Origin: a virus
DNA length: 64,000 nucleotides
IMG/VR virus record: IMGVR_UViG_3300040770_000547
Reading direction: 5' to 3' (one strand)
Numbering within the stretch: the first letter of the stretch is position 1; every line of letters begins with the position of its first letter. A program made the position numbers and the translations under genes. This document shows, piece by piece, positions 899-43,204 of this stretch. The notes beneath the pieces were generated by a model, which worked only from the letters and a program-made list of their open reading frames with translations, was not told the DNA's origin and ran no database searches.

Positions 899-971
899 AG
901 TCGCCAGCATAATGGCATGCAGCAGGTCTCCAACACCTTGCATGGATGAGGTTCGATTCCTCAGGTGATTG
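899..971 (+). tRNA. trnW: tRNA-Trp(CCA)
   Basis: AGTCGCC/GGTGATT acceptor, loop CTCCAAC, T-arm TGAGG-TTCGATT-CCTCA. Confidence 0.85.
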
Positions 972-11251: not shown

Positions 11252-11292
11252 AAGGGCAGCTTCGTCCTGACAAAAGAAAAAGGGCAGCTTCG
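11252..11292 (+). promoter_or_regulatory. early-cassette motif copies 7 and 8 (tandem)
   Basis: AAGGGCAGCTTCG at 11252 and AAAGGGCAGCTTCG at 11279. Confidence 0.72.
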
Positions 11293-11399
11293 TCTTGTCC
11301 AAATATTTCTTTGTCGCTCCCGCGTGTGGGATTGATACAACGGCTTCCCTGAGGATGTTTGTTGTCACTTATAACACGAAATATAAAACCTATATTACA

Positions 11400-12005
11400 A
11401 TGTCAAAATCAAGCACGATTAGTTTAGATGTATTAAATGCATTAAGCCCACAAAAAGGAATGTTGAACGCTTCAGTTAAGGAGCTAGAGAACCAAGTATT
11501 CACTTTTCATTCTATAGTTGCACCTGCTGAGAAAACTGCGGATCTTACTGCTGTCAGCGATGACAACTCGTATGTGAAAGCTCGTTATATCAATTCAAAA
11601 ACAAAGAAGAGTTTCTTGATCCCAATCAGAGGATTATTGAATCTTGGAATTGTTCAGATGGGTACAACTAAAGTGAAAGCATTAGACCCTAAAGCAGAAG
11701 TTGCAAAAGTGAATGATTATTTACTTGAGAAATCAACTGATGGTAAAGGAGTGAGTCTTCCAATGTCTTTCTATGTAGTTTCTGTCAAAGATAGAATCCA
11801 AGAAAGCACTGGGAACATTATGTACCCTCCGTACTGCTACCAAGCGTTCTCTGATGAGATTGAGACGCTTAGAGCGACAGATCCTAAAGCGGATTTGGGT
11901 CCTATCTACCAAAATTATGACTTTATGCAGTCATTATATGCTGGAGAAAGATCTGCTCGCTACGCCACTGCGGAAGCAACTAAAGACATAGTTATCTCAG
12001 TTTAA
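11400..12005 (+). CDS. hypothetical early protein with YPPxCY motif (start moved from 11295)
   Basis: MSKSSTIS start after an A-rich leader; IMYPPYCYQAF. Confidence 0.78.
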   Translation: MSKSSTISLDVLNALSPQKGMLNASVKELENQVFTFHSIVAPAEKTADLTAVSDDNSYVKARYINSKTKKSFLIPIRGLLNLGIVQMGTTKVKALDPKAEVAKVNDYLLEKSTDGKGVSLPMSFYVVSVKDRIQESTGNIMYPPYCYQAFSDEIETLRATDPKADLGPIYQNYDFMQSLYAGERSARYATAEATKDIVISV

Positions 12006-12035
12006 TCCCCAAAGGATTTAATAATGATACTATTT

Positions 12036-12079
12036 ACTCTCATACCAGACCATGTGTCCGGTGTGGGAGTTCTTTTTTT
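12036..12079 (+). terminator. intrinsic terminator closing the early cassette array
   Basis: ACTCTCATACC/GGTGTGGGAGT then T-run. Confidence 0.8.
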
Positions 12080-12222
12080 GTCCTTTTTCAACAATACACC
12101 ACTAAAAAGCACCTGACATTGCACCATTCATCCATAGGTTTATATAACATTACCGTCTTTTTCAACAACAAACTACCCATTTCCTCTTAACAAACTGGAT
12201 TTATACTCGATATCGAGTGTAT

Positions 12223-12471
12223 TTATCTCCCGATTTGTAATAAATAACAGGAAATAAGTGTATTTTTGGTTCGTTGATAACAGGCAAAAGCGATGAGTAC
12301 AAAAAATTGAATAATAACGTTAAGTATAAAAAGGAGATCCTCGATTACTGAAGAAAGTAAGTAAGTCGAATGGGTTAACCCGAGTAAGAACACAACGATA
12401 AAAATATAGTTAATCAGTCCACAGCCTTCCAGGAACAAACACACTTGTTTTTCCATAATTATAAGAGTCAT
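12223..12471 (-). CDS. possible small membrane protein on the minus strand
   Basis: Hydrophobic 82-aa ORF with no competing + ORF; 14-bp palindrome ACTCGATATCGAGT (12205-12218) just past its stop. Confidence 0.3.
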   Translation of the reverse strand: MTLIIMEKQVCLFLEGCGLINYIFIVVFLLGLTHSTYLLSSVIEDLLFILNVIIQFFVLIAFACYQRTKNTLISCYLLQIGR

Positions 12472-12478
12472 TAATCAC

Positions 12479-12893
12479 GTCAGACAAGACCGCGAAGCTT
12501 GTTTGACTGGGTTAGTTACTAAAGTACCAATCCCTGGTCGGCGAAGGGAACTGAGGTTAGAAAAAACTGCGAAGCAGCAGGCTGAATGCAATGTGATGAA
12601 GTACAGTAATCATGTTAGTAAGTCTCTCCCGAGTAGATTGAGTATAACGATTTACAATATTAGCCCCGGATATAGGTTGATTACCTTACCCTGTATCAGA
12701 TAGACACGTTTCATCGTCGGGCAATAACAAAAAGTCCAGAGTGCACATAGGTATATGAAAATTAAGAACCTACCTGCATTAGATTTATTAGAGAATCGTC
12801 TGGCAACAATAAGTCCTGAGTGGATTGCATGATACGTCATACAACCTCGAGCTCTTCATAAGTGGAGAGCTTTACAGGCTTATAGAAAAGTCC
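12479..12893 (+). ncRNA. candidate ~415-nt structured ncRNA (unknown class)
   Basis: 10-bp hairpin at the 5' end, several further stems, no convincing ORF. Confidence 0.55.
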
Positions 12894-13012
12894 GGAATTA
12901 ATCTTGACGCTGATAGTATGTGCACATATAATTTCAGTTGAGGTACGAGAGATAATCATAAATTAAGTTGTACAGCTTGATTCAATGAAAGGGTTCGATT
13001 CCCGAATTTCCG
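12894..13012 (+). ncRNA. tRNA-like element with non-canonical interior
   Basis: GGAATT/AATTTCC ends, GGGTTCGATTCCC T-loop, followed by GCA; no anticodon arm. Confidence 0.45.
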
Positions 13013-13076
13013 CATAATATGGAGAACTTCAGAAGAGCTATCCAAGTTTAATAAACCATTTAATAACCAAACCATT

Positions 13077-13202
13077 ATGAAAAAGATTTTGTTTTTATTC
13101 GTATTGGCTTTCAGTCTGTTTTCCTTTATGGGAGCTAGAGACTATGTGAAGCCTGTTTCAAGTCATGAAGCTGTATTTGTAGGAAGTACTAACTTTCCCT
13201 AA
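13077..13202 (+). CDS. small secreted peptide (41 aa)
   Basis: MKKILFLFVLAFSLFSF signal-peptide-like start; A-rich leader. Confidence 0.55.
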   Translation: MKKILFLFVLAFSLFSFMGARDYVKPVSSHEAVFVGSTNFP

Positions 13203-13386
13203 AGATCTACAACGGTACAATCAAAAAAGCCGAAGTTCCATAAGGAAAGACAAAAGAATTAGAATACTGCAGGCCTCCTTTATAGTTTGGAACGAGCCTG
13301 AAGTTAGAATTAACATTGTGTATAATATCGTTGCAAGCACAGACTTAAAATCTGGATACTGACAACTATACTATATATAAAATCTA

Positions 13387-13433
13387 AAAATACCCTTGAG
13401 AGGCGAGTGCCGTTTAGGACTCAAGGGTATTTT
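13387..13433. terminator. 14-bp perfect hairpin
   Basis: AAAATACCCTTGAG/CTCAAGGGTATTTT. Confidence 0.65.
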
Positions 13434-13501
13434 ATTAACATGGGGAGGCAACTAAGCTTTCTAATATTACGAAGCCGTGTAATAATATGCATTATAAAAG
13501 C

Positions 13502-13584
13502 GGGTAAGTACTCTAGAAAAGGCGTTATTGTTTGTCGCGGTATACAGTCGGCATACAAGATGGGTTCGATTCCCTACCTATCCA
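13502..13584 (+). pseudogene. degenerate tRNA-like element (possible TGT/Thr remnant)
   Basis: GGGTAAG/CCTATCC-A-CA ends, GGGTTCGATTCCC; arms weak. Confidence 0.35.
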
Positions 13585-13589
13585 CAAGA

Positions 13590-13830
13590 TTGTTCATTGA
13601 CGTATTATGAGTTTTTGCAAGACGGGAGTTCGACTCTCCCCAACTCCACAAATCGAAGACCGTGTATGTTGTCGATGGTGTAGCTAGCCGATATACAAAT
13701 AGCCGAACTTATGGGGTTGCCTGGTTTTGATTGCAATACACAAGTTTTACTGAGAATAGTCCCAACTATAACTCCAAAAGTTATACAACTTTTTAGTGCA
13801 GCTGATTTAGAATTAGCAGCCTAAACGAAA
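13590..13830 (+). ncRNA. ssrA: circularly permuted (two-piece) tmRNA
   Basis: 3' end GACGGGAGTTCGACTCTCCCCAACTCCA (13621-13648) precedes 5' end GGGGTTGCCTGGTTTTGA (13713); G3:U70 pair; tag frame ending ...ADLELAA-TAA (13824). Confidence 0.88.
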
Positions 13831-13833
13831 CTT

Positions 13834-13860
13834 GGGGGAGCGTCAATCCCCCTTTCTTTT
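13834..13860 (+). terminator. terminator after tmRNA
   Basis: GGGGGA/TCCCCC stem then T-rich tail. Confidence 0.7.
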
Positions 13861-13879
13861 TACTCTAAACCCCAAACAC

Positions 13880-14221
13880 ATGAAAAACGAAACACTACCT
13901 AATCCAAAGATTACGAGAACTCGTAATTCTGTGAATGTAAATTGGTTATCTGTATATAATGGTAACTCTGATAACGTTATTCAAATTACATCAAAATCCG
14001 AGTTCTTTAATACTCCTCTTGTTTATAAAGTAACAGAGGATTTAATTATACTTAGAAAAGTCACTATACGAGATAACAAAAGAATAGTAGTACCTAAAAA
14101 AGGCCGCGATTCTGAGTTTTATCGCATGAGCATCATAACTAAATTTGAAATCGAAAACAACAGATACGATTTTGAATTTGATGAAGATGATGAGGATGTA
14201 GTATCTGCTTATTATAAGTAG
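13880..14221 (+). CDS. hypothetical protein (start MKNETL)
   Basis: A-rich leader before ATG 13880. Confidence 0.75.
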   Translation: MKNETLPNPKITRTRNSVNVNWLSVYNGNSDNVIQITSKSEFFNTPLVYKVTEDLIILRKVTIRDNKRIVVPKKGRDSEFYRMSIITKFEIENNRYDFEFDEDDEDVVSAYYK

Positions 14222-14249
14222 CATATTTGTAAATTAATTGAGATCTTTG

Positions 14250-15190
14250 AATTGAAATAACGGCTTGGCGAGCGAAACGTGGGCCGTGGTTCAAAGAATA
14301 TACAACACTAGTCCTGGAATTCCTGGCAAGCCTATGAAGATAGGAACTTGGTAGAGGATAGAGGCACGTAATCCTTCATATTGCATCGGTACAAATAAAC
14401 AAAACCGAGCCGCACAACACCGTGATTCTTTTAGATAACGGAATATGATTGACTACAACCGGAGCAGCACGGATTCAAACTAACTGTACTGTGTCGAACA
14501 GGATGAAATCGATTGATGCTAGCCGTAAGGCAACTAACATCTTGTTGCATTTAAAAAGGGACAAGAAATGATAGGGATTCTGCAGGATCCAGCTATTGAA
14601 TAAGGGTAAGAATAATATCCCCTTAGAACCTCGCTGACACCAGCCAAGTCAGGAGAACAAATCGGGTGGCATCCCTCTAAGCATAAGGAGAACAACAATG
14701 CGCATTAGCATAAGGTGTACAACAATGCAAGTACTGTCGGCCAGCCATGTCAGCTTGGACCCAAAAGTTGGAGTTGATAACTTTGCCGGCAAGTACTTTA
14801 ACCATGCTGAAAAGCAATTGCAAGGAGACTATTAGGTACGTCTTCCCAGAGTAACGTGTGCCAACACCCTGGGTATCTTAGGTCAAGGATGCAATACTTT
14901 TCATAAAGTCTATAATCTGCGATAACAGAATGAATACATCAACCGCGCAACAAGGCGAGTTTAGTTTTTTAGTATGTGAGCGGTAGACACAACTACACAC
15001 AACAAACAAAGATTGCTACTTAAGCTAGTTTATGAACAGCGACTCTGACTCGGGCATCTAATGTACCGGCTAACCTTACAGAGAAAAAGGTGTAATCCCT
15101 TGCCAGTATGATTTTTAGGCAAATGCAAACTTCGTCAATGTTCCTTAGCGTTCGGGTATTAAGTATAAGATAGCATAAGCCTAAAAGTTG
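14250..15190 (+). ncRNA. candidate ~950-nt large structured ncRNA
   Basis: No ORF of 60 aa or more in any frame, elevated GC, many stems with GUAA/GAAA tetraloops and a 13-bp long-range helix. Confidence 0.7.
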
Positions 15191-15192
15191 TT

Positions 15193-15271
15193 GGGGCATT
15201 AGGGCATCAAGGGATTGATGTGATGAGCTGTAACGGAACTCAGCAGGCAGGTTCGATTCCTGTTAGCCTCA
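15193..15271 (+). ncRNA. tRNA-like element lacking a normal anticodon arm
   Basis: GGGGC/GCCTC-A ends, GCAGG-TTCGATT-CCTGT T-arm, two internal hairpins. Confidence 0.5.
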
Positions 15272-15287
15272 CTATTTTAACAACATC

Positions 15288-15585
15288 CAACGCTCAAAGG
15301 AATTAAGAGGGCAGGCGTTATAGTGACCCGCCGAGAATGAATGGTCACTGAATTTCTAAGTAGTAATGGTCATCTTAAGATACCTGAGTAGAGTGAGTAG
15401 TAAGAGTGGTGCCTATATGGTATTTCTGAAATGAACGTAGTAGCTCAAAAAGGCAGATGGACTCAATAGAGAAGATTATTATTGAATTTGCGTGTTCGTT
15501 CAGTCCAGTTTGCATAGCAGGATCGCGCACGTTAAAAACTAAGGTAGGAGCAGTCATCAAGTATGGTGATTGTCTCCCCTTTTTT
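15288..15585 (+). ncRNA. candidate ~300-nt structured RNA ending in a terminator-like hairpin
   Basis: AGTGACC/GGTCACT, GGACT/AGTCC and GGAGCAGTCATCA/TGGTGATTGTCTCC stems. Confidence 0.4.
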
Positions 15586-15612
15586 GTATACTAAGAACTA
15601 ACAACAACTAAC

Positions 15613-16107
15613 ATGGAAGAGTATGTAGATTACCTGAAAGGGAAAATTCAAGAATGCGAGCTGGAAGATATGCACGTATCTGTGTCTGTTTACAAAGAAG
15701 TACTAAATACTTATTTAAGTTTCCTTGATGCCGCCAAGCTGAAAGCATCGTTACATAATAAAGTAGGCATAGTTACAGCAGGCTCAAGACAATTTGGTAA
15801 AGCTGCCAGATTTGCAGAGCTCTATGGTATGATGAAACCTGCAGTTCACATCATGGTGGGCAGCAAAGAGATGCATGACAATATGGAAAAAGCACTTATT
15901 GATGCTGTAGAGCATGTAAAGAATGCACCTATTCAAGGAAGATTTACAGACGCTTTTGAAAAAGAACGCGGTATGAGCATAAACGAGTCCATGGCAAAAG
16001 ACAACAGTATAATGATTACTGCTCTTCCAAAGATGACAAAGCCTCTACTCCCGTTGGATAAATATGGCCAACCGCTTGAATTACCTAAATCCAAATACCA
16101 CAAATAA
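15613..16107 (+). CDS. hypothetical protein
   Basis: Co-oriented ORF, A-rich leader. Confidence 0.78.
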   Translation: MEEYVDYLKGKIQECELEDMHVSVSVYKEVLNTYLSFLDAAKLKASLHNKVGIVTAGSRQFGKAARFAELYGMMKPAVHIMVGSKEMHDNMEKALIDAVEHVKNAPIQGRFTDAFEKERGMSINESMAKDNSIMITALPKMTKPLLPLDKYGQPLELPKSKYHK

Positions 16108-26171: not shown

Positions 26172-26636
26172 ATGTCAGGCCATTTATCAACAGAAGAGAA
26201 AGCTTTATTTAAAGCCGAAATAGATGCAATAAGAAGAAAGGATTATGCTTTTTTCATAGAGTTTTTAGAGGCAAACAAAATAAAGTTCAAAAGAACAGGG
26301 GGAACCATTGTGCTAGACGGTATGGTGGTATACGAAGATCTTCAAGTTTCTTTCGGCAGTCCCAAGACGTATCAATACAATCTTGAGACACTAAAAAGAA
26401 AAGTAAGCTCAAATACAGTATTAAGTATAAAAGCTAAGTTTATAGGTGCAAACAGCCTAGGTTACATAACAGGTTTGAATTACATCTTAAATGTACTTCC
26501 ATCTAGTGGTATAACTATATGCAGAAAAGATGGATCAGGTAAATGCGTTTACCAATCCCTAACAGCTTTTCTTGTAAACTGGGATAGCATAGAAAAAATA
26601 ACAAGCGGGAAACCACAAGATCAAGCTAGCCTATAA
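26172..26636 (+). CDS. hypothetical protein
   Basis: Tightly packed. Confidence 0.75.
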   Translation: MSGHLSTEEKALFKAEIDAIRRKDYAFFIEFLEANKIKFKRTGGTIVLDGMVVYEDLQVSFGSPKTYQYNLETLKRKVSSNTVLSIKAKFIGANSLGYITGLNYILNVLPSSGITICRKDGSGKCVYQSLTAFLVNWDSIEKITSGKPQDQASL

Positions 26637-26702
26637 ACGGGGATGCGTGGGAGGATGATAAATAAACACTGTCTGATAAGGGTTCGAATCCCTTTTTCCC
26701 GT
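26637..26702 (+). ncRNA. minimal tRNA-like element (acceptor stem plus T-arm only)
   Basis: ACGGGGA/TTCCCGT, AAGGG-TTCGAAT-CCCTT. Confidence 0.5.
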
Positions 26703-26721
26703 TATTTTAACAACTAAATAT

Positions 26722-43064: not shown

Positions 43065-43204
43065 GGAGGCATAGCTGTTAAGATTGCATTCTAACACAGT
43101 AAGTGGGTCGCCGATGAGCTGATATTACTGCACAACATGCGCGCTAAAGATGTAAGTGATCAGTTATGTACGCGGCAAGGGAGGTTCGATTCCTCCTGTC
43201 TCTA
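43065..43204 (+). ncRNA. expanded tRNA-like RNA (140 nt)
   Basis: GGAGGCA/TGTCTCT acceptor, GGAGG-TTCGATT-CCTCC T-arm, ends ACA; no canonical anticodon arm. Confidence 0.55.

What the first reader, a model, noticed from the sequence alone, without database searches (positions are those of the whole stretch)
12479..12893. Unclassified ~415-nt structured RNA
Seen: GTCAGACAAG/CTTGTTTGAC 10-bp hairpin whose loop (GACCG) can pair with TGGTC in the next hairpin loop; CTGC-GAA-GCAG; TAGGT/ACCTA; and a 3' domain closed by ATAAG(T)CCTG/CAGGCTTAT with a bulged U, reminiscent of the RNase P P4 helix. No credible ORF.
Basis: partly seen in the sequence, partly recalled or inferred. Interest (0 to 1): 0.6.

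Follow-up and report, generated by a model that had tools for sequence, protein, structure and literature searches.

The report
Composite phage non-coding RNA modules
The 415-base stretch of this uncultured phage is real folded non-coding sequence, but it is two separate pieces (a conserved 180-base module plus three tandem branched units at the start of an insertable cassette), not one RNA or an RNase P relative, and its job is still unknown.

Summary
The stretch has no ORF under four genetic codes, matches no Rfam family, and beats shuffles on the + strand only (z -2.8 against -0.7). It is not one 415-nt RNA, though. Three related metagenomic phage lineages split it near 12657.

(1) 12479-12657 is a conserved module. 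It is 77% identical to contig L001, while the adjacent protein is about 51% identical. Three hairpins (12479-12507, 12531-12549, 12593-12613) keep pairing through 7 double substitutions (0 of 500 shuffles reach this).

(2) 12658-12886 is three tandem 60-75-nt three-way junctions, each closed by a helix with a bulged pyrimidine. They fold well (z -2.7; unit 2 alone -3.7), but no homologue could be retrieved.

Part 2 opens a 1.65-kb segment (12658-14307) holding T-arm elements, a small ORF, the permuted tmRNA and another ORF. L001 lacks this segment: its module runs straight into the homologue of 14303-14445. A 20-nt imperfect direct repeat brackets the segment.

The RNase P P4 likeness is a 6-nt coincidence, and the kissing loop is not supported. 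The most likely reading is independently folding stable RNA modules of a phage RNA island. The scan had already noted a near-identical RNA on other DNA.

The parts
12479..12657 (+). Conserved 5' module. It is the last part of an ORF-free conserved segment that starts after the terminator of gene 11295-12005.
   Evidence: 77% identical to L001 1676-1836 and about 73% to L006 7086-7262, against 68% and 63% for the adjacent gene. Fold z is -1.30 on + and +0.74 on -.
12479..12507 (+). Hairpin H1: 10-bp stem, 9-nt loop
   Evidence: Four of the seven column-consistent pairs change on both sides between the window and L001 and stay paired (helix 1). There is G.U on the + strand.
12531..12549 (+). Hairpin Hc: 5 bp, 9-nt loop, followed by an invariant 7-nt single-stranded stretch at 12549-12555
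   Evidence: 100% of cells are paired in three lineages. L006 has one double change and one C-G to U-G change (helix 2).
12567..12577 (+). Small 4-bp hairpin with a GAA loop
   Evidence: Identical in L001, so untested there; not formed in L006 (helix 3).
12593..12613 (+). Hairpin Hb: 5 bp with a nearly invariant 10-11-nt loop
   Evidence: Two double changes in L006, and G.U to G-C in L001 (helix 4).
12654..12673 (+). Left copy of a 20-nt imperfect direct repeat (16 of 20 identical to 14302-14321). It marks the break point of homology with L001.
   Evidence: Alignments A6 and A7; coordinates.
12662..12722 (+). Unit 0: three-way junction closed by a helix with a bulged C
   Evidence: Fold z -1.65. 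It stays a separate unit when 12658-12886 is folded whole. Its 3' strand and linker closely resemble those of unit 1 (read).
12733..12804 (+).
   Evidence: Fold z -2.22; same fold in the context of 12658-12886.
12809..12883 (+).
   Evidence: Fold z -3.70, with 1 of 200 shuffles as stable.
12889..13013 (+). Adjacent element with a closing stem and a T-arm look-alike (12991-13003).
   Evidence: Exact T-arm 13-mer. Not called a tRNA by ARAGORN or by the Rfam tRNA model at E<=10. Fold z -0.91.
12658..14307 (+). 1.65-kb segment present here and absent from L001. It holds units 0-2, two T-arm elements, the small ORF 13077-13202, the hairpin 13390-13430, the permuted tmRNA 13589-13824 and ORF 13832-14221.
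   Evidence: L001 passes from the homologue of 12479-12640 directly into the homologue of 14303-14445. tmRNA: Rfam RF04321, 50.8 bits.
14302..14321 (+). Right copy of the 20-nt direct repeat

Best explanation
The interval is the junction of two pieces of a + strand non-coding RNA island in an uncultured phage (rIIA- and Dda-type genes; all genes on one strand).

Piece 1 (12479-12657) is a conserved module of about 180 nt. At least three of its hairpins are maintained by compensatory substitutions. They are separated by invariant purine-rich single-stranded stretches, which are the likely contact surfaces for a protein or another RNA.

Piece 2 (12658-12886) is three tandem three-way-junction units, most likely duplicates of one another. 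Each is closed by a helix with a bulged pyrimidine, and A-rich linkers join them.

Piece 2 is the first part of a 1.65-kb cassette-like segment that also carries the phage's permuted tmRNA. A 20-nt direct repeat brackets the segment, and a related phage lacks it.

Inferred, not shown: the island is transcribed rightwards. Each bead folds on its own as it is made. Host tRNA-processing enzymes acting on the T-arm element at 12889-13013 help set the 3' end. The released modules then act as stable protein-binding or decoy RNAs during infection.
For: Non-coding.

No known family.

Strand-specific stability: and 108/109.

Constraint: the ORF-free DNA is 74-77% identical to L001, against 68% for the neighbouring gene, whose protein is about 51% identical.

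Covariation: 7 pairs change on both sides, 88.7% of cells are paired, 0 of 500 shuffles reach this, and slid controls give 0-1.

Modularity: L001 joins the module to the 14303+ RNA. In L006 the module is followed by a hairpin and unrelated ORFs.

Beads-on-a-string fold: the three units keep their folds whether folded alone or together.

T-arm motif: 8 copies on the + strand against 0.38 expected.
Against: There is no transcript evidence. Only three lineages could be compared, and only for piece 1.

No homologue of piece 2 was retrievable, so its structure rests on thermodynamics and on the resemblance between the units. Its two strands fold equally well (z -2.67 and -2.69).

The 5' module alone is only modestly more stable than shuffles (z -1.3 at most).

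The bulged-helix descriptor is not enriched in the window as a whole.

The T-arm element is not tRNA-like by covariance model. A near-consensus sigma-70-type promoter match (12904-12932) lies inside it, which would fit a separate downstream transcript.
Confidence: 0.55

Rival explanations
1. One ~415-nt RNA with a catalytic or RNase P-related 3' domain.
For: Unit 2's closing helix has the same local pattern as P4 of E. coli rnpB: A-A-G, a bulged U, C-C on one strand and G-G-C-U-U on the other. The phage carries tRNAs, T-arm elements and a tmRNA that all need 5' processing.
Against: No RNase P model of any type scores at E<=10. The two strands are 56 nt apart and close a plain three-way junction, with no P1-P3 pseudoknot and no specificity domain. 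Once a 6-mer is paired, the other strand's sequence is forced, and that 6-mer (counted with two further positions, N then G) occurs 6 times in the window against 4.6 expected. The unit is missing from L001 and L006. The 5' and 3' halves separate in evolution.
Confidence: 0.04
2. A long structured leader or intergenic control region of mRNAs rather than a stand-alone RNA. Its hairpins would serve as terminators, processing sites or stabilisers for flanking genes such as the small ORF 13077-13202.
For: All genes run rightwards, so read-through is likely. A small ORF with a signal-peptide-like start follows and is closed by a strong hairpin at 13390-13430. In L006 the module lies about 150 nt upstream of ORFs.
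Against: The downstream partner differs in every lineage: RNA modules in L001, unrelated ORFs in L006, and units plus a T-arm element here. So no gene-specific cis-regulator is conserved. None of the conserved hairpins is followed by a U tract.
Confidence: 0.2
3. A DNA-level element: a recombination hot spot, origin or protein-binding array whose inverted repeats act in DNA.
For: The indel is flanked by direct repeats. L005 and L007 carry a 498-bp gene cassette at the same spot, which L006 lacks. The upstream conserved segment 12076-12478 has no fold signal (z +0.37) and carries a conserved 20-nt direct repeat (D15). The two strands of 12658-12886 fold equally well.
Against: The supported helices of the 5' module contain G.U pairs that would be A.C on the other strand, and only the + strand beats shuffles there.
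Confidence: 0.12
4. Spacer without function. The hairpins would be chance, and the similarity to L001 a recent exchange.
For: Piece 2 has no homologue in any collection I could search.
Against: Piece 1 is recognisable in three lineages whose neighbouring protein is only 46-51% identical, and it shows compensatory changes. Unit 2 has z -3.7.
Confidence: 0.09

Closest known systems
Phage T4 RNAC and RNAD (stable RNAs of the T4 tRNA region)
   Same: They are phage-encoded, ORF-free stable RNAs lying among tRNA-type genes on the same strand, and their function is still unknown. PMC9697503 calls them RNAs of yet unknown function.
   Different: No sequence or structure relation was tested or seen. 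Here the neighbours are non-decoding T-arm elements and a permuted tmRNA rather than a regular tRNA cluster, and the RNA is built of shuffled modules.
GOLLD (RF01998) and ROOL (RF03087) large ornate RNAs
   Same: Large structured RNAs of phages and prophages, often near tRNA genes, with unknown function.
   Different: No covariance-model match at E<=10. The conserved unit here is about 180 nt, and the whole is a string of separable beads rather than one large fold.
RNase P RNA, helix P4
   Same: Local pattern of a helix with a bulged U after a G-C pair, preceded by A-rich sequence.
   Different: No other RNase P feature is present. The strands are 56 nt apart, against about 290 nt in E. coli rnpB. 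There is no model match, and the relatives do not conserve it.
tRNA-like punctuation (MALAT1/mascRNA; plant mitochondrial t-elements)
   Same: A structured RNA is followed directly by an acceptor/T-arm look-alike that could recruit RNase P or RNase Z to cut it free.
   Different: This is inference only. The element at 12889-13013 has a 3-bp T-stem and an imperfect closing stem, and the tRNA models do not recognise it.

Membership tests
RNase P RNA (Rfam RF00010, RF00011, RF00373, RF00009, RF02357) | Covariance-model match | tested here: not met
   No RNase P family at E<=10 in 3.8 kb or in 801 bases.
RNase P RNA | P4 helix with a bulged U formed by conserved regions CR-I and CR-V | tested here: inconclusive
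   The local pattern is present at 12809-12818/12875-12883 and resembles E. coli rnpB. It rests on one 6-mer, which (counted with two further positions, N then G) occurs 6 times against 4.6 expected.
RNase P RNA | P4 is a long-range pseudoknot enclosing the catalytic core (P1-P3, P5, P15/P18) | tested here: not met
   The strands are 56 nt apart and enclose only two plain hairpins.
RNase P RNA | Conserved in related genomes | tested here: not met
   No homologue of 12640-13010 in L001-L007, L012 or the rest of the window. The 6-mer is absent from the RNA regions of L001, L005 and L006.
GOLLD / ROOL | Covariance-model match and a single large multi-domain fold of about 580-800 nt | tested here: not met
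   No match. The region splits into separable modules.
tRNA / tRNA-like | Cloverleaf recognised by ARAGORN or Rfam RF00005 | tested here: not met
   No call within 12479-13013. Units 0-2 are three-way junctions with 8-10-bp arms and tetraloops.
Cis-regulatory leader (riboswitch-type) | Constant association with a downstream gene family | tested here: not met
   The downstream content differs in the window, L001 and L006.
T4 RNAC/RNAD-type stable RNAs of a phage tRNA region | Made and processed together with neighbouring tRNA-type genes, and accumulating as a stable RNA | not testable with these tools
   Needs RNA data. Only the genomic setting could be checked.

The most novel reading that the evidence does not exclude
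The three tandem junction units are mimics of the RNase P P4 region. Carried next to T-arm elements and a two-piece tmRNA, they would bind or divert the host RNase P protein (or act as a minimal processing ribozyme), letting the phage control tRNA-type processing during infection.
Probability: 0.04. Interest if true: 0.85.

Novelty: new member of a known kind. Interest (0 to 1): 0.4.

Why it matters
Phage genomes hold many ORF-free stretches that are usually left unannotated. This one gives a small conserved RNA module (about 180 nt) with three covariation-supported hairpins and invariant loops, small enough for synthesis, probing and pull-down.

It also shows a phage RNA island being rebuilt in cassettes. 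A 1.65-kb block that includes a permuted tmRNA sits between 20-nt direct repeats inside what is one continuous RNA region in a related phage. If such islands are common, their modules should be catalogued one by one rather than as giant RNAs.

Tried and rejected
Searches for more homologues:
The contigs of the 27 protein homologues of the neighbouring gene, including relatives at 82-87% identity, could therefore not be fetched.
- blastn of 12000-15600 against the phage collection found nothing.
- Protein-anchored scans gave 6 metagenome loci and 1 IMG/VR locus and none in the genome collection.
- Exact-pattern scans for the 5' module gave only chance hits in coding DNA, plus the already known IMG/VR contig. 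One pattern was badly designed and missed even L006.
- The triple 6-mer pattern for the tandem units returned 43 loci. All were protein-coding repeats with no similarity to the island.
- nhmmer with the 3' units against all loci and the rest of the window found nothing.
- The whole 64-kb IMG/VR relative gave only a T-arm match and a 14-nt chance match in coding DNA.

Ideas rejected:
- Hammerhead or other small ribozymes: the junctions have almost no unpaired core, and there is no Rfam hit.
- SRP, 6S and Y RNA: no Rfam hit.
- A recoded protein gene.
- A window-wide motif of the bulged helix: the descriptor gives 4 hits on + against about 2.2 expected.
- A recurring promoter at 12324-12335: the motif is not repeated in the window.

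Neighbouring gene: the AlphaFold model has pLDDT 79. Foldseek finds nothing at E<=0.001, and the best VIA Z is 2.9. This gives no functional hint.

Full report
Setting. The window is an uncultured phage. Almost all ORFs lie on the + strand. It has an rIIA-type protein, a Dda-type helicase and a tail protein. No known phage is close. There are five tRNAs by Rfam and four by ARAGORN at the left end, and a permuted tmRNA at 13589-13824 (RF04321, 50.8 bits). Between gene 11295-12005 and gene 15613-16107 there is little coding capacity. No whole genome is held for the window.

The observation. The 415 nt fold with z -2.81 on the + strand and -0.73 on the - strand. No Rfam family matches at E<=10, whether 3.8 kb or only 801 bases are searched. 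No frame is open across the stretch under table 11, TAG=Q, TGA=W or TAA=Q. The one 97-codon open frame is not kept in the relatives.

Relatives. The neighbouring gene has 27 homologues. Scans anchored on a protein alignment gave seven loci in three lineages besides the window's own: L001/L002 (about 51% protein identity), L003 and L004 (too short downstream to be useful), and L005/L006/L007 (46%).

L001 aligns to window 12008-12636 at 69% identity by blastn. It then jumps to 14380-14442 and 15248-15276. By global alignment the ORF-free DNA is 74% (12006-12478) and 77% (12479-12640) identical to L001, against 68% for the gene. The figures for L006 are 67%, 73% and 63%. Non-coding DNA that is at least as conserved as a gene whose protein is half diverged is under constraint.

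The 5' module (12479-12657). On a three-lineage alignment (A4) I named four helices and counted pairs.
- H1 (12479-12507) has four pairs changed on both sides between the window and L001, and all stay paired.
- Hc (12531-12549) is fully paired in all three lineages, with one double change and one wobble change in L006.
- Hb (12593-12613) has two double changes in L006 and one G.U to G-C change in L001.
- The small hairpin at 12567-12577 is identical in L001 and not formed in L006.

Overall, 88.7% of cells are paired and 7 pairs have double changes. None of 500 shuffles reaches this, and partners slid by 1-3 columns give 0-1. With three sequences this is supportive but not conclusive.

The loops and joints are the most conserved parts: the seven bases after Hc and the 10-11-nt loop of Hb are invariant or nearly so. 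A closing helix 12509-12511/12628-12630 is possible in all three lineages but never varies, so it is untested. The + strand is favoured here (z -1.30 against +0.74), and the supported helices hold G.U pairs.

Two of its five pairs use bases already in stems, and L001 turns one of the remaining three into U.U. The long-range helix in the 415-nt MFE competes with H1 and with the closing helix of unit 1, so I treat it as a folding artefact.

The upstream segment 12076-12478 is conserved in sequence but has no fold signal (z +0.37), apart from one hairpin at 12340-12369 with a compensatory change. The true 5' end of any transcript is therefore unknown, and 12479 is simply the foot of H1. A variant of the phage's early-promoter motif lies at 12326-12343 (D3) inside a block that is invariant in L001 and L002. 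The block itself is not repeated elsewhere in the window.

The 3' part (12658-12886). Folded alone or together, it forms three separate three-way junctions: 12662-12722, 12733-12804 and 12809-12883. Their z-scores are -1.65, -2.22 and -3.70, and -2.67 for the three together. Each is closed by a helix in which a G-C pair is followed by a bulged pyrimidine and two C-G pairs. The next pair differs between units (C-G, A-U, U-A) (read). The 3' strands and linkers of units 0 and 1 are nearly the same sequence. I read the units as tandem duplicates.

Several caveats apply. The two strands of this part fold equally well. A descriptor for the bulged helix is not enriched across the window. No homologue was found in any locus, in the rest of the window, in the phage collection or in IMG/VR.

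The break point. L001 passes from the homologue of the 5' module directly into the homologue of window 14303-14445 (79% column identity). A three-way alignment puts the switch inside a 20-nt sequence that occurs twice in the window, at 12654-12673 and 14302-14321, with 16 of 20 bases identical. So 12658-14307 is an insertion here or a deletion in L001. The segment holds units 0-2, two T-arm elements, ORF 13077-13202, the hairpin 13390-13430, the permuted tmRNA and ORF 13832-14221.

In L006 the module is instead followed by a long hairpin and ORFs unrelated to anything in the window. L005 and L007 carry a further 498-bp gene cassette at that spot. The island is thus rebuilt in blocks, and the module works, if it works, without its present neighbours.

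RNase P. E. coli rnpB was fetched for a direct look. Its P4 strands share a 6-mer and the forced complementary 5-7 bases with unit 2. But they lie about 290 nt apart around the whole catalytic core, whereas unit 2's strands are 56 nt apart around two plain hairpins. The 6-mer, counted with two further positions (N then G), occurs 6 times in the window against 4.6 expected. No RNase P model matches. The resemblance is local and most likely coincidental.

Function. Nothing here shows function. The best-supported reading is a set of independently folding RNA modules in a rightward-transcribed island. The conserved single-stranded loops of the 5' module would be contact sites. The following T-arm element (12889-13013) is a possible processing signal. 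T-arm 13-mers with up to two mismatches occur 8 times on the + strand against 0.38 expected, several of them outside tRNA genes. Against the processing idea, that element is not tRNA-like by model. It also contains an 11-of-12 sigma-70-type promoter match at 12904-12932, although such matches are only mildly enriched in the window and the other three lie inside ORFs.

Earlier scan notes (AI notes, treated as leads) describe a near-identical RNA of about 420 nt in another genome as 'beads on a string' ending in three similar branched units, with the end-to-end helix an artefact. They also describe the 14250-15190 region of this window as modular. My own tests agree with both. They add the three-lineage covariation for the 5' module and the repeat-flanked 1.65-kb indel.

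Verdict. This is real, uncatalogued, structured non-coding sequence. It is composite rather than one RNA, it is not RNase P-related, and its function is unknown. Interest is moderate.

Noticed in passing
window 949-961, 15249-15261, 26680-26692, 43182-43194 (+): T-arm look-alikes outside any called tRNA. The one at 26680 sits in a small closed stem (26638-26706) directly after the stop of ORF 26172-26636. With the tRNA copies there are 8 on the + strand against 0.38 expected.
   Followed up: partly
window 12076-12478: ORF-free segment conserved in L001, L002 and L006 but with no fold signal (z +0.37). It holds a conserved 20-nt direct repeat (12083-12102 and 12157-12176) and several invariant blocks. 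It may be a DNA-level control region.
   Followed up: partly
window 12904-12932 (+): Near-consensus sigma-70-type promoter match (11 of 12, spacer 17) inside the T-arm element, about 145 nt upstream of the small ORF 13077-13202.
   Followed up: partly
window 13077-13202 and 13390-13430: 41-codon ORF with a hydrophobic, signal-peptide-like start. About 190 nt downstream lies an 11-bp perfect hairpin followed by a T run.
   Followed up: no
window 11295-12005: The listed TTG start overlaps an early-promoter motif (11275-11314). The homologues are 201-207 aa and their alignment has an invariant Met at residue 36, so the real start is probably near 11400. The family has no Pfam match and no PDB fold match (pLDDT 79).
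   Followed up: partly
L005 7386-7884 and L007, against L006 7385: A 498-bp single-gene cassette is present in two near-identical relatives and absent from the third, right after the hairpin that follows the 5' module homologue.
   Followed up: partly
window 13502-13585: A second exact T-arm 13-mer (13562-13574) sits directly upstream of the permuted tmRNA. L006 has no such element before its tmRNA.
   Followed up: partly
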